In this document: in pieces, positions 6,001 through 9,000 of the stretch
Numbering within the stretch: position 1 is the first letter of the stretch
How the letters are laid out: every line of letters starts with the position of its first letter
Position numbers: made by a program
IMG/VR virus record: IMGVR_UViG_2534682331_000010
DNA length: 28,052 nucleotides
Reading direction: 5' to 3' (one strand)
From: a virus
Lineage: Duplodnaviria; Heunggongvirae; Uroviricota; Caudoviricetes

Positions 6001-9000
6001 TCTTGCTGTCAGAGCATCAAAAAATGGTCGCTCTGTTAACTCCGAGATCGTCATGATTTTGCAAGCCGCGATTGATGAAGATAGGTCGCCAAAGTCAGTT
6101 GAGTCATTTGCTCAGCAAGAAGCTGACAAATTCAAAGAGGCGCTGCTTGAGACGCTGAAAACCATGTATGGTAAGGATGCAAAATGAATAAAAAACAGTT
6201 TATTAAGTCAACAACGTCAAGCAAGGAAGAGCTAGAGAAGGAGCTAAACTCCCTGAAATATGCTCTGTGCCTGGTTTACTCAAGACTGCCAATGGAAGAT
6301 AAAAACGCCATTTACAATGAAATGATTAGCAGCCTTGATTTTAACGATAGAGACCTAGCATCCCACCTCAACAGCTTCCGCGTCCCTGAGTAATTCTATT
6401 GCGGATTTGCTTCTTACGGTGGTTTAAGCTGGAGAGCTTGGCTTCTGCTTCTGATATTTGCGCATCCAGATCTTTAAGCTCAAGATCTGAAAGTCGCTGG
6501 TCAAGCAGGGTTTGATTCAACTCAATGTTGTTCAGACGTTCTTCTATGGTCATGATTACTCCTTATAAAAAACCCACCTGACGGTGGGTTTTATAATTAG
6601 ATTTCTGGTTTTATTCTTCCAAAAACCTTTTCTATTCCTTTTTCGTATTCTTCTCTTGTCTCGCTCATCGCTGCGACACCAAGAAGCTTACCGATATGCT
6701 GACGCAAAGCCTTGACACCAATTTCAGAAAGGAACAGGTGCAACTTATCAGATTGTTTTCCGTTCTCGTCTCGGCTGGCTCGAATCTGTTCAAGGATTTT
6801 ACCTTTACTCTTTGCTAGCGGAGTGTATATCTGCATGTTGGTTAGTTGCCCAAAACGAATTGGACGTCCTTTCTCTGGCCTGTTCAGGCCGTACAGTCGA
6901 TACCACTCCTCATATAGCTCATCTGGAAATTCCTTTTCATACTGCCTCGCCTCTTCACGAACAAAGGCCTTGAAGGAATCAATAACCTCCTGTACTTCAG
7001 GTCGATATCCTGCAATAGCATAACCAAGTCCTTTAAGCCCTGCTTTCATTGATGCGGTAACAAGTCTTTGGGCAAGGCTGGCAGATTTTGATCTTGAAGG
7101 CGGTAGTGCGCCAGCTCGATCGGCATTAATCATTGCTGTGGCTATATCACCAATAAGGGCAATATCGTAACCGTGAGCCTCATCAGCGAGTGGATTTGGG
7201 GCTGAGTTTGGGACCGGACTTCTCCATTGAAAAATAAGAGGTTTTTTGAATTTTTCTAGCAGAAATGGATCAACAAAATCAGCCATATAATTCGTATTTA
7301 GAAAACGGTCTACATCCCTACCATGCTCACCGATTCCTAGTAATTTAGCCAGACCAGTTTTACTAACTACAACCGTTTTATCATTATCATCAAGTACGTA
7401 ACATTCTGCATCAATGCCGAAATCATCAATGAAGTTACCCTTTCTGATCGCTCTTAGTGGCTTACCTTCCCATCGTTTTGCCGCTGCTTTCTTTGCTATT
7501 TCAGAACGCTGCTCTTTAGTCAGCGACTTTGCGCGAGCGATACCGCCCTTAGCTTTCCCTTCGCCACTTTTCTTTTCAGTCATAATGCAAGCACCTTTGT
7601 TGTGATGTATGCTTGCATTATATGCACTGTACACACATACAAGCAAGCATAAAACCAAAACAAAATGCTTGCATTACAACCGCGCTACTCCAACTACACA
7701 TTATCATCTGGTATCCTGCACAAAACTAAGGAGGTTGGTGTGAAGCAATTTCTTGCTGCTATGTTCTTATTCATATCTTTTGGGGCTACAGCAGAGTGCT
7801 GGGTCGTTGGAGATATGCGCGGAATAAGCTATTCAGAACGAAATAATTTCCATCCTGAAGAAGATGGTTTTAGTGGAACATTCATCATTAAGACAAGCGG
7901 TGAAGATGCTAGCATCACATATTCTGGGACAGATGCGGGCGGCATGGCTTACAAAGTATTGTCTAAAAACTCCATCATAGGAATCGGCGCGAATGGCGAA
8001 ACTCAACGCGTTATCGACTCATGGGTAATACATCCTACTGGAACAGTTTTAATGTCAAAAACCATTTCCGGTTATGGAAATATGGATTCAACCAAAGCTT
8101 TTGTTGGAAAAGTAAAAAGAAAATGTTAGCGATTGAATCCAATTTCCCATACGTTACTGCTGTGTTGCCTCAGTGGCAAGCAGCGGCCTGATGGCATTCG
8201 CAGCGTTATTCAGCGCTCTTTCATAGGCTGGCGTTCCAGCTTTAGTGTTTGCCAGACGTAAGAGAGCATTCCTTGCTGCTTTGGACTCATACAAGCGCAT
8301 GATTGCACCGAAACCAGCCTCAAGTCCCAGTGATACACCAAGGGTTGCAGTTGCGCCAATCGTTCTAATCCTGTTAGCTTGCGATTGTCCTGTCTGTGTT
8401 ACTACATTTGCGGCGTCCGACCTTGCTGTTTGCTGTAGAACTTCATGAAGAGCATCAAGCTCTTTCATGTGTCTCCCACTGAATATCGTGTTATAGATCT
8501 GACCGTCAGATTGCGACTTCAACTTATTTAACTCGGTAAGAAATTTTGTTGGCGAGTCTCCTGCTTTTTCTGCAATCTTGCTGATATAAGCAGCACGCAT
8601 AGCGTTCTTTCCATCTTCACTAAGAGCTGGCCATATCCTCTTAATATCTGATGGTTTTCTGCTGAATACAACGCTGTTTATTAGCTCTGGAGTAAACTCT
8701 TTTTTAGCTTTGTTGAGATTATTCGCAATCCTTTTATTAAGAACCTTATTGAAGACGTTGGAGTAGTCAGAGTTTGCTTTGACGTATCTGGCGGCCTCTC
8801 CAGCCCCCAAATACCGCGCTGCGTTATTCCTCAAATCCGCCCCCATTGCCCTCTCCACGGCATCAGTTGCGGCTTTCGCGCTATTAGGAAAAACCATGGC
8901 ATCTCCCTGAATACTTTCCCTCAAGGCTGACCGCAACTCTCTCAATAGACCAAAATCTATATCTGGTTTAGCAAGTTCTTCTCGCAAATCGGATAACCCG

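What the first reader, a model, noticed from the sequence alone, without database searches (positions are those of the whole stretch)
6184..8129. Uncharacterised accessory module at the sieA/immI hotspot
Between the last ejection gene and mnt, where P22 carries superinfection-exclusion genes, there is a 328-aa protein of unknown function with its own perfect TATAAT promoter and a terminator 3 nt after its stop. It is transcribed divergently from a small signal-peptide protein that is the positional analog of SieA. Two small ORFs (69 and 61 aa) converge next to it. I recognise none of these as a known exclusion or defence protein, so this is the best candidate in the window for a lysogen-expressed protective system that has not been described.
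Basis: partly seen in the sequence, partly recalled or inferred. Interest (0 to 1): 0.75.

Follow-up and report, generated by a model that had tools for sequence, protein, structure and literature searches.

The report
Self-regulated P63C prophage accessory gene
The 328-aa gene is a P63C-domain protein of unknown function, carried as a self-contained cassette (promoter, its own binding sites, gene, terminator) in a slot where P22-like prophages keep protective genes; it is probably a single-gene anti-phage factor, but it does not form a system with its neighbours.

Summary
All the described features are present. The window is a P22-like prophage. Between ejection gene 16 and mnt lie a 129-aa secreted protein, a divergent 328-aa gene with a perfect TATAAT and a strong terminator, and two small convergent genes.

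The 328-aa protein is not an orphan. It belongs to Pfam P63C (PF10546), a large phage family with no tested function. The same protein sits beside true SieA, beside other genes, or alone. In other phages its slot holds a Panacea toxin-antitoxin-like pair. So it is a one-gene cassette, not part of a multi-gene system.

The new result is a conserved control region. Four copies of ATGCAAGCAT form two inverted pairs that cover the -35, the -10 and the start codon. The motif stays with P63C genes that carry a basic N-terminal motif, in Gamma-, Beta- and Alphaproteobacteria and Actinobacteria. It changes where the motif changes and is absent where the motif is absent. I infer self-repression.

Relatives occupy other accessory slots: just after cI, the nin region, and between Q and the lysis genes. 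The N-terminal core weakly resembles the DNA-binding domain of BstA, a prophage abortive-infection protein (HHalign 54%). Defence is plausible but untested.

The 129-aa protein models as a small periplasmic beta-barrel and is not a SieA homologue.

The parts
6597..7583 (-). 328-aa P63C-domain protein. Its parts are a basic two-helix N-terminal module (residues ~9-38), an alpha/beta domain (~43-140), a hypervariable middle (81-200) and a helical P63C region (205-292).
   Evidence: The Pfam P63C hit has E 9e-14 and 52.3 bits against a cut-off of 26.1; phrog_2384. There are 1421 homologues with E<1e-5. The AF2 model has pLDDT 78.
7665..7674 (-). Operator site 1 (ATGCAAGCAT on the gene strand), the left arm of the distal inverted pair
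   Evidence: conserved in 65 unique upstream regions
7641..7650 (-). Operator site 2 (ATGCTTGCTT on the gene strand), which contains the -35 hexamer TTGCTT (7646->7641)
7609..7618 (-). Operator site 3 (ATGCAAGCAT on the gene strand), which overlaps the perfect -10 TATAAT (7622->7617) and the expected transcription start
7585..7594 (-). Operator site 4 (GTGCTTGCAT on the gene strand), which lies between the Shine-Dalgarno AAGGTG and the ATG at 7583
6566..6592 (-). Intrinsic terminator (AAAACCCACC-GTCA-GGTGGGTTTT followed by a U-run), 4 nt after the stop. Its A/T-run flanks make it look bidirectional. It also serves as a shared recombination joint.
   Evidence: The fold is -16 kcal/mol with z -5.2. 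A terminator follows the P63C gene in most loci examined. The 45 nt at 6550-6594 are shared with phages that lack the gene (H7 and H15).
7740..8129 (+). 129-aa secreted protein at the sieA position. It has a signal peptide, conserved Cys20 and Cys129, and a predicted 8-stranded beta-barrel. It is an independent gene.
7709..7742 (+). 34-nt joint (Shine-Dalgarno plus GTG) that is 100% identical to the start of P22 sieA. It is the right boundary of the swappable cassette.
6368..6553 (-). 61-aa coiled-coil protein with a strong AAGGAG ribosome-binding site just after the terminator. It is a real gene of unknown function and is not tied to the P63C gene.
   Evidence: phrog_7586. 13 of 14 variable sites are synonymous. 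It is present next to the Panacea cassette in Emek and L116-L119.
6184..6393 (+). 69-aa protein whose start overlaps the mnt stop (ATGA). It is the second gene of the mnt operon and its function is unknown.
   Evidence: phrog_16466; 11 of 14 variable sites are synonymous
5939..6187 (+). mnt (Arc/Mnt ribbon-helix-helix repressor), the left landmark of the hotspot
   Evidence: Pfam Arc E 9.6e-11; P22 layout
8154..10064 (-). gp16-like ejection (DNA transfer) protein, the right landmark of the hotspot
   Evidence: Position, and the 'DNA transfer protein' annotation in Emek; identical-length genes carry PF26808 in L117-L121

Best explanation
Window 6558-7708 is a one-gene accessory cassette, a 'moron'. 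It is inserted antisense to the mnt operon at the sieA/immI hotspot of a P22-like prophage.

Shown: the cassette consists of a sigma-70 promoter, four copies of ATGCAAGCAT, a 328-aa P63C-family ORF and a strong terminator. The four copies form two inverted pairs 22-24 bp apart. They cover the -35, the -10/+1 and the gap between the Shine-Dalgarno and the ATG.

Inferred with good support: the protein binds these sites through its basic N-terminal two-helix module (GKAKGG-ARA-x2-LT-x-EQRSEIAKKAAAxRW) and represses its own promoter. That would hold the protein at a steady level in the lysogen, independently of the phage's c2, mnt and arc circuits. The terminator would stop transcription from running into the antisense strand of orf69 and mnt.

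Inferred with moderate to weak support: the rest of the protein acts as a single-protein anti-phage factor for the lysogen (exclusion or abortive infection), in the manner of BstA. This part comprises a BstA-N-like alpha/beta domain, a hypervariable and recombining middle, and the helical P63C domain. Replicating copies of the cassette's own operator DNA might titrate the protein when the prophage itself is induced, like BstA's aba element. This last step is speculation.

The 129-aa periplasmic beta-barrel, orf69 and orf61 are separate genes with separate histories.
For: Cassette independence:
- The identical protein has varied neighbours, including true SieA.
- The same slot holds a SocA_Panacea plus 160-aa pair in Emek and L116-L119.
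- Terminators follow the gene in most loci examined, and an upstream terminator tail appears in the consensus.

Operator:
- GCAAGCA/TGCTTGC 7-mers occur at 27 per kb in the 123 nt upstream of 62 unique homologues, against 0.13 per kb in the rest of those loci. 61 of 62 loci have at least two copies.
- Position and orientation are fixed while the spacers diverge.
- The motif is also upstream of distant P63C genes in ST104, SEN34, Burkholderia, Pseudomonas, Paracoccus and Gordonia.
- Where the N-terminal motif is altered, the repeats differ: 933W L0095 has ACGTGCAT and vB_PL1 has GTTAGATAT.
- P63C proteins that lack the N-terminal motif sit directly after cI and have no repeats: Salmonella phage SF6 and Midgardsormr38.
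- ST104 orf23 shares the N-terminal motif and the operator with the window protein, but its alpha/beta domain is of the 933W type.

Defence-like position: homologues lie just after cI (the rex/bstA slot), in the nin region, between Q and the holin, next to integrase, and beside Arc/Ant-like modules.

Variability: residues 81-140 average 41% identity across all pairs, against 62-66% for the flanks. Some homologues are 99% identical in the C-terminal part but only 44% in the middle.

BstA link: HHalign of the diverse P63C alignment against the BstA family gives probability 54% and P 1.3e-4. P63C residues 59-197 align with BstA 28-153, which is BstA's KilA-N-like domain. Controls against KilA-N proteins give below about 1%. 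BstA biology is taken from PMC8585504.
Against: - There is no experimental or transcriptomic evidence here for expression in lysogens or for any phage-resistance phenotype.
- No PADLOC model matches.
- The BstA similarity is below the level usually accepted as homology and covers only the N-terminal domain. The BstA C-terminal domain is absent.
- No conserved polar or catalytic residue set is visible across the family, so no effector chemistry can be named.
- DNA binding by the N-terminal module is inferred from co-variation only. That segment is modelled with low confidence (pLDDT 52-70).
- The gene lies on the late-operon strand, so anti-terminated late transcription could also express it during lytic growth.
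Confidence: 0.45

Rival explanations
1. The P63C protein is a transcription regulator or anti-repressor-type protein rather than a defence effector. In this reading it is a self-controlled DNA- or repressor-binding protein. It would modulate other prophages, incoming phages' immunity circuits or host genes, like other members of the Bro/KilA/Ant group of shuffled phage regulators.
For: From my own knowledge, Pfam credits Iyer, Koonin and Aravind (2002) with defining the P63C domain among domain-shuffled viral regulators; I could not retrieve that paper. P63C genes repeatedly lie next to secondary immunity modules. These are P22 immI here, an S24 repressor plus ORF6N protein in L013, and Arc/Arc/KilA-N in Paracoccus Pkon1. 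The protein very probably binds DNA. No catalytic residues are conserved.
Against: The operator motif clusters only at the gene's own promoter in this 28-kb window, so no other phage target is visible. A constitutively made anti-repressor of the phage's own repressor would destabilise lysogeny. The hypervariable middle and the allelic exchange with a toxin-antitoxin-like cassette fit conflict genes better.
Confidence: 0.25
2. The gene serves the phage's own lytic development, for example replication, packaging or host takeover. In this reading it is expressed mainly by late-operon read-through, and the promoter-operator only fine-tunes it.
For: The gene is on the same strand as the late operon, between gene 16 and gene 9, a stretch that P22 late transcription crosses (my own knowledge of P22). 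In 933W the homologue lies in the early nin region.
Against: Only a minority of P22-like phages have the gene. P22, Emek and BTP1 lack it at this site. It is replaceable by unrelated cassettes. It is insulated by terminators on both sides. It sits in many different positions in different phage types. An essential or core lytic function is therefore unlikely.
Confidence: 0.1
3. One reading: the 328-aa, 129-aa, 69-aa and 61-aa genes form one multi-gene protective system.
For: The genes are physically adjacent. The divergent promoters share a 156-bp intergenic region, and operator site 1 lies 66 bp upstream of the 129-aa start.
Against: The neighbours of the identical 328-aa protein vary: SieA, a 161-aa gene, a 131-aa gene, or none, with several sets of small ORFs. 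The neighbours of the 129-aa gene vary too: Panacea TA, Rap1a, or P63C. orf69 and orf61 occur without P63C. P63C homologues in other phage types have none of these partners.
Confidence: 0.05
4. The repeated ATGCAAGCAT sites are bound by a host transcription factor (for example a SlyA/MarR-type protein, whose consensus TTAGCAAGCTAA shares the GCAAGC core), or they act as an RNA hairpin. In either case the P63C protein would not bind them.
For: The core resembles the SlyA consensus (my own recall, not tested). The two proximal sites could pair as RNA around the Shine-Dalgarno sequence (repeat I3).
Against: The motif travels with the gene into Burkholderia, Pseudomonas, Paracoccus and Gordonia phages, which share no such host factor. 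It changes or disappears together with the protein's N-terminal motif. The distal pair lies upstream of the -35 and is not transcribed from this promoter. The common TGCTTACA variants of site 4 are not compensated in site 3.
Confidence: 0.05

Closest known systems
BstA (prophage BTP1 abortive-infection protein with the aba self-immunity DNA element; Owen et al. 2021, PMC8585504)
   Same: Both are single prophage genes of about 310-330 aa with their own terminator, found in P22-like and other temperate phages. Distant P63C genes occupy the same slot just downstream of cI. The N-terminal alpha/beta domain shows weak profile similarity to BstA's KilA-N-like domain (54%, P 1.3e-4). In both, a short repeated DNA element spans the gene's own start codon.
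   Different: There is no hit to the PADLOC BstA model. The C-terminal half is P63C, not BstA_C (PF26567). The DNA element here consists of four inverted-repeat sites laid over a promoter, which looks like an operator, whereas aba is a 63-bp element with terminal CCCGCC direct repeats. Any self-immunity role is untested. P63C proteins also carry an extra N-terminal basic module.
Pfam P63C family (PF10546; named after the C-terminus of Myxococcus phage Mx8 p63)
   Same: The window protein is a clear member (52.3 bits against a cut-off of 26.1). All 59 aligned homologues hit the model. RefSeq uses this name.
   Different: The family is only a sequence signature with no assigned function. The literature search found three papers with one passing mention each. 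The promoter-operator cassette and the N-terminal module described here are not part of the Pfam definition.
P22 SieA superinfection exclusion protein (Leavitt et al. 2024, PMC10883804)
   Same: It occupies the same genome position between gene 16 and mnt. The 129-aa gene even reuses the sieA Shine-Dalgarno/GTG segment. Both are envelope-directed products.
   Different: SieA is a multi-pass inner-membrane protein of about 160 aa. The 129-aa protein has one cleavable signal peptide and a soluble beta-barrel model, and it gives no SIEA Pfam hit. The P63C protein is cytoplasmic and co-exists with SieA in some prophages.
Phage 'morons' (promoter-gene-terminator units; Juhala et al. 2000, cited from my own knowledge)
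   Same: It has its own promoter and its own terminator. It is present or absent among close relatives and is flanked by conserved joints.
   Different: Classic morons are not known to carry a portable self-repression module. Here the regulator and the cargo are one polypeptide.

Membership tests
Pfam P63C (PF10546) | Match to the family HMM above the gathering score | tested here: met
   52.3 bits against a cut-off of 26.1, residues 205-292 covering model positions 3-92 of 93; 59 of 59 homologues match
BstA defence family | Match to the BstA protein model (PADLOC PDLC02356) or BstA_C (PF26567) | tested here: not met
   The window protein, ST104 orf23 and 933W L0095 give no BstA hit. BTP1 BstA itself scores 1.9e-124. 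Pfam shows only P63C.
BstA defence family | N-terminal KilA-N-like DNA-binding domain | tested here: inconclusive
BstA defence family | Cognate DNA element at the gene start that neutralises the protein (aba), and an abortive-infection phenotype | not testable with these tools
   A conserved repeated DNA element spans the start codon, but its effect on protein activity and any phage phenotype need experiments
SieA (PF26849), applied to the 129-aa protein | Sequence match, and several transmembrane helices in an inner-membrane protein | tested here: not met
   No Pfam hit. The AF2 model is one N-terminal helix followed by nine beta strands. True SieA (164 aa, PF26849) occupies this position in L004 and L008 instead.
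Moron (independent promoter-gene-terminator unit) | Own promoter, own terminator, and patchy presence among related phages | tested here: met
   Perfect -10 and conserved promoter layout. Terminator z -5.2, with terminators in most loci examined. The gene is absent from P22, Emek and BTP1 at this site.
KilA-N (PF04383) / Bro-N type domains | HMM or profile match to the domain | tested here: not met
   No Pfam hit, even at E up to 5, over 59 members. HHalign against two KilA-N proteins gives probability 1% or less.
PliC/MliC-type periplasmic lysozyme inhibitors, applied to the 129-aa protein | Family HMM match, or a specific structural match | tested here: inconclusive

The most novel reading that the evidence does not exclude
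P63C proteins are a large, unrecognised family of single-gene prophage defence proteins, distantly related to BstA through their N-terminal domain. Each carries a portable self-recognition unit: a roughly 40-residue basic module plus its ATGCAAGCAT DNA sites, conserved from Actinobacteria to Proteobacteria. In the lysogen this unit sets the protein's level. On induction, the amplifying copies of the sites switch the protein off for the phage's own DNA, giving built-in self-immunity.
Probability: 0.25. Interest if true: 0.75.

Novelty: new variant of a known kind. Interest (0 to 1): 0.5.

Why it matters
P63C proteins are common in temperate phages of many phyla. At least 1421 relatives scored E<1e-5 in the protein search, and part of this cassette is present in 193 of 5426 complete E. 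coli genomes. No function has been tested for any of them.

Placing the family in the rex/bstA/sieA-type slots, and showing that it travels with its own promoter, operator and terminator, gives a concrete and cheap experiment. Clone 1.15 kb and challenge with phages.

The work also identifies a very small, widely conserved protein-DNA recognition pair that could be studied or reused on its own. If the defence reading holds, it would add a new family to prophage-encoded immunity and extend the BstA idea of a defence gene with built-in self-recognition.

If the defence reading fails, the result is still a clean case of a self-repressing phage accessory gene. It also corrects the idea that this hotspot holds a multi-gene system.

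Tried and rejected
- **PADLOC, all four proteins:** nothing relevant. The 61-aa protein gave only weak coiled-coil noise.
- **NCBIfam:** no hits.
- **PDB by sequence:** nothing for the single protein or for the profile.
- **AFDB Foldseek:** the library was unavailable.
- **Literature:** 'P63C domain' appears in three papers with one passing mention each. 'PF10546' and 'L0095' return nothing. The 2002 paper by Iyer, Koonin and Aravind could not be retrieved.
- **RNA-hairpin reading of the repeats:** rejected. There are no compensatory changes, and the distal pair lies outside the transcript. The Rfam hit to a plant miRNA model over the palindromic region is far below threshold (26.5 against 105 bits).
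- **Host-factor reading:** rejected because the motif is conserved in phages of four bacterial classes.
- **Other targets of the protein in the window:** none found. The motif clusters only at the gene's own promoter.
- **N-terminal module on other kinds of phage protein:** tblastn of the 42-aa module found only P63C genes, plus one uncharacterised Gordonia gene that I did not check.
- **Named family for the 129-aa protein:** exhaustive HMMER gave 117 representatives. Nearly all are small proteins of about 100-160 aa, plus a few fragments and three long multi-domain proteins. The ten I scanned carried no Pfam name for this region, and three of them gave no NCBIfam hit.
- **A clear sigma-70 promoter for the 129-aa gene:** not identified. 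Only a TATCAT shared with Emek is visible, and the annotated P22 PsieA sequence is not conserved here.
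Full report
**1. What is there**

The window is a P22-like (Lederbergvirus) prophage with its late operon on the minus strand. Reading from low coordinates, it carries:
- integrase (1-1152);
- an acyltransferase ORF and the tailspike (2475-4298, -);
- an ant gene broken by one in-frame stop;
- sar RNA (5440-5507), arc (5672-5824, -) and mnt (5939-6187, +);
- the region in question;
- the ejection genes: gp16-like (8154-10064, -) and gp20 (10064-11350, -).

- The 328-aa ORF runs 6597-7583 (-).
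- Its -10 is a perfect TATAAT (7622->7617). The -35 is weak (TTGCTT, 3 of 6, 18-nt spacer), so the consensus scanner missed the promoter.
- A hairpin terminator starts 4 nt after the stop. It folds at -16 kcal/mol with z = -5.2.
- The divergent 129-aa ORF starts at GTG 7740 and has a signal peptide.
- The convergent 69-aa and 61-aa ORFs are genuine genes. Among 9 unique alleles, 11 of 14 and 13 of 14 variable sites are synonymous.

**2. The 328-aa protein is a P63C-family member**

It matches Pfam P63C (PF10546) at 52.3 bits against a cut-off of 26.1, and it matches phrog_2384. The large protein collection holds 1421 relatives with E<1e-5. Those that carry a name are called 'P63C domain-containing protein' or 'hypothetical protein'. 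RefSeq uses the same name. The 1151-bp cassette is present at 99% identity or more over its full length in 17 of 5426 complete E. coli genomes, and in part in 193.

Nothing is known about function.
- The family appears in only three held papers, with one passing mention each.
- No PADLOC, NCBIfam or PDB-sequence hit exists.
- The AlphaFold model has pLDDT 78 and shows three parts: helices 11-37 at low confidence, an alpha/beta domain 43-140 at about 90, and a helical region 142-328.

**3. It is a one-gene cassette, not a system**

The identical protein occurs in Salmonella P22-like prophages next to true SieA (PF26849), next to a 161-aa or 131-aa gene, or next to nothing. It is followed by three different sets of small ORFs.

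The 129-aa gene in turn occurs with three different partners:
- a SocA_Panacea plus 160-aa pair, which looks like a toxin-antitoxin module and sits exactly where the P63C gene sits here;
- mnt plus a secreted Rap1a-family protein;
- a P63C gene.

The swapped block is 6558-7708. Its left joint is the terminator. The 45 nt at 6550-6594 are shared with phages that lack the gene. Its right joint is 34 nt of Shine-Dalgarno plus GTG that are 100% identical to the start of P22 sieA. P22 itself has mnt, orf59a, the mnt terminator, 320 bp of spacer, PsieA and then sieA at this place.

Relatives of the 328-aa protein lie in other accessory slots of unrelated phage types:
- between Q and the holin in a lambdoid prophage;
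- in a gap in the tail genes, next to an S24 repressor and an ORF6N protein;
- directly downstream of cI in ST104, Salmonella phage SF6 and Erwinia Midgardsormr38;
- in the nin region of 933W and SEN34;
- near integrase in Pseudomonas Lodos, Gordonia Barco and Burkholderia DC1;
- beside an Arc/Arc/KilA-N cluster in Paracoccus Pkon1.

In most loci examined a terminator follows the stop directly.

**4. The conserved operator**

The 156-bp divergent region holds four copies of ATGCAAGCAT (7665-7674, 7641-7650, 7609-7618, 7585-7594). Four of the seven matches with at most one mismatch in the 28-kb window are here.

On the gene strand the layout is: ATGCAAGCAT, N14, ATGCTTGCTT (containing the -35), N18, TATAAT running into GCAAGCAT, N15 (containing the Shine-Dalgarno), GTGCTTGCAT, T, ATG.

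Across 62 unique homologous loci, the core 7-mer occurs at 27 per kb in the 123 nt upstream, against 0.13 per kb elsewhere in the same loci. 61 of 62 loci have at least two copies. Position and orientation stay fixed while the spacers drift.

The repeats are not an RNA stem. The distal pair lies upstream of the -35, and the frequent TGCTTACA variants of the last site are not compensated in its partner.

The repeats are not a host-factor site either. The same motif sits upstream of P63C genes in ST104 (32% protein identity), SEN34, Burkholderia Bups phi1, Pseudomonas Lodos, Paracoccus Pkon1 and Gordonia Barco.

The motif tracks the protein's N-terminal module.
- Proteins with GG-ARA-..-L[ST]-E.RSEIA[KR]KAA..RW carry GCAAGCA sites.
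- 933W L0095 and Burkholderia vB_PL1 have a changed module (..KESSRKAVAAK and ..TERAKKAVAAR) and different repeats (ACGTGCAT and GTTAGATAT).
- The short P63C proteins of SF6 and Midgardsormr38 lack the module, lie in the cI operon and have no repeats.
- ST104 orf23 shares the module and the operator with the window protein, but its alpha/beta domain is of the 933W type. This points to the first roughly 40 residues as the recognition element.
- In the phage collection the module turns up only on P63C genes, plus one Gordonia gene I did not check.

I conclude that the protein represses its own promoter. This is an inference from co-variation and is not shown directly.

**5. What the rest of the protein may do**

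Three lines point to a conflict gene.
- Position: the rex/bstA/sieA-type slots listed above, and allelic exchange with a Panacea toxin-antitoxin-like pair.
- Variability: residues 81-140 average 41% identity across all pairs, against 62-66% for the flanks. Some alleles are 99% identical over residues 201-295 and 97% over 296-328, but only 44% over residues 81-140. That indicates recombination within the gene.
- A weak but specific profile match to BstA, the BTP1 prophage abortive-infection protein. With the shallow alignment HHalign gave 16.5%. With the diverse alignment it gave 54% and P 1.3e-4. P63C residues 59-197 aligned to BstA 28-153, which is the KilA-N-like domain defined by Owen et al. 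(PMC8585504). Control comparisons against KilA-N proteins gave about 1% or less.

BstA also has a short DNA element across its own start codon that gives the prophage self-immunity. The operator here could play a similar second role, but that is speculation.

Several points count against a defence role.
- The P63C proteins fail the BstA HMM and lack BstA_C.
- No conserved catalytic residues are visible. A GIIALVDEATGYQ motif in distant members is replaced in this subfamily.
- Expression in lysogens is untested.
- Late-operon read-through could express the gene during lytic growth.

**6. The neighbours**

The 129-aa protein belongs to a small unnamed family.
- The word-indexed search found 22 clusters.
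- Exhaustive HMMER found 117 representatives. Nearly all are small proteins of about 100-160 aa, plus a few fragments and three long multi-domain proteins.
- The ten relatives I scanned carried no Pfam name for this region, and three of them gave no NCBIfam hit.

It is not a SieA homologue, because SieA is a multi-pass inner-membrane protein (PMC10883804). A periplasmic protective or inhibitor role is plausible. In other prophages the gene follows a Rap1a-family immunity-like gene in the mnt operon. This role is unproven.

orf69 is translationally coupled to mnt, so it should be made in lysogens. orf61 is a coiled-coil protein with a strong ribosome-binding site just after the terminator. Neither has a known relative.

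**7. Verdict**

The region does hold uncharacterised, probably lysogen-expressed accessory genes. However, the main gene belongs to a known family of unknown function, and the 'module' is a set of independently assorting parts.

My confidence by step:
- about 0.85 that this is a self-contained cassette;
- about 0.75 that it is self-repressed through the N-terminal module and the ATGCAAGCAT sites;
- about 0.35-0.4 that it protects the lysogen against other phages.

Noticed in passing
window 4509-5438 (-): The ant (anti-repressor) gene has one in-frame stop after codon 52, which splits it into 52-aa and 250-aa ORFs. Ant is probably inactive in this prophage, while arc, mnt and sar RNA (5440-5507) look intact.
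   Followed up: partly
L110-L115, 3650-3985 (+), upstream of the 129-aa gene: In other P22-like prophages the mnt operon carries a secreted 111-aa Rap1a-family protein (PF18602, a T6SS amidase-effector immunity fold) directly before the 129-aa gene. This suggests the slot collects periplasmic protective proteins.
   Followed up: partly
L002 (phage Emek) 2638-3511; L116-L119 2759-3626: The slot that holds the P63C cassette here holds a SocA_Panacea (DUF4065) gene plus an overlapping 160-aa gene in other phages. This looks like a toxin-antitoxin pair and has the same flanking joints.
   Followed up: partly
window 6550-6594 and 7709-7742: Short conserved joints sit at gene boundaries. After the terminator, TTTTTTATAAGGAGTAATCATGA is shared by different downstream ORFs. 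The 34-nt Shine-Dalgarno/GTG segment is shared by sieA and the 129-aa gene. These look like boundary sequences where cassettes are exchanged.
   Followed up: partly
window 1595-2365 (+): An acyltransferase-3 ORF lies in a very AT-rich stretch (GC 26-31%) and matches only positions 113-325 of the Pfam model. It may be a truncated O-antigen modification gene, or its start may be miscalled.
   Followed up: no
L098 (933W) 3380-3420 and L107 (vB_PL1) ~2380-2420: Distant P63C genes with a different N-terminal basic motif carry their own different upstream repeats: an ACGTGCAT inverted repeat and GTTAGATAT direct repeats. These could be a second and third operator specificity.
   Followed up: partly
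alignment A6, window residues ~182-197: Distant P63C proteins share a strongly conserved GIIALVDEATGYQ motif. The window's subfamily has replaced it with GLGYAIAGYRPE. The meaning is unknown.
   Followed up: no
L011 5820-5900: In the Enterobacter lambdoid prophage, a sequence that looks like a tRNA gene lies just upstream of the P63C cassette, between Q and the holin. I read this from the sequence by eye and did not run the tRNA finder.
   Followed up: no
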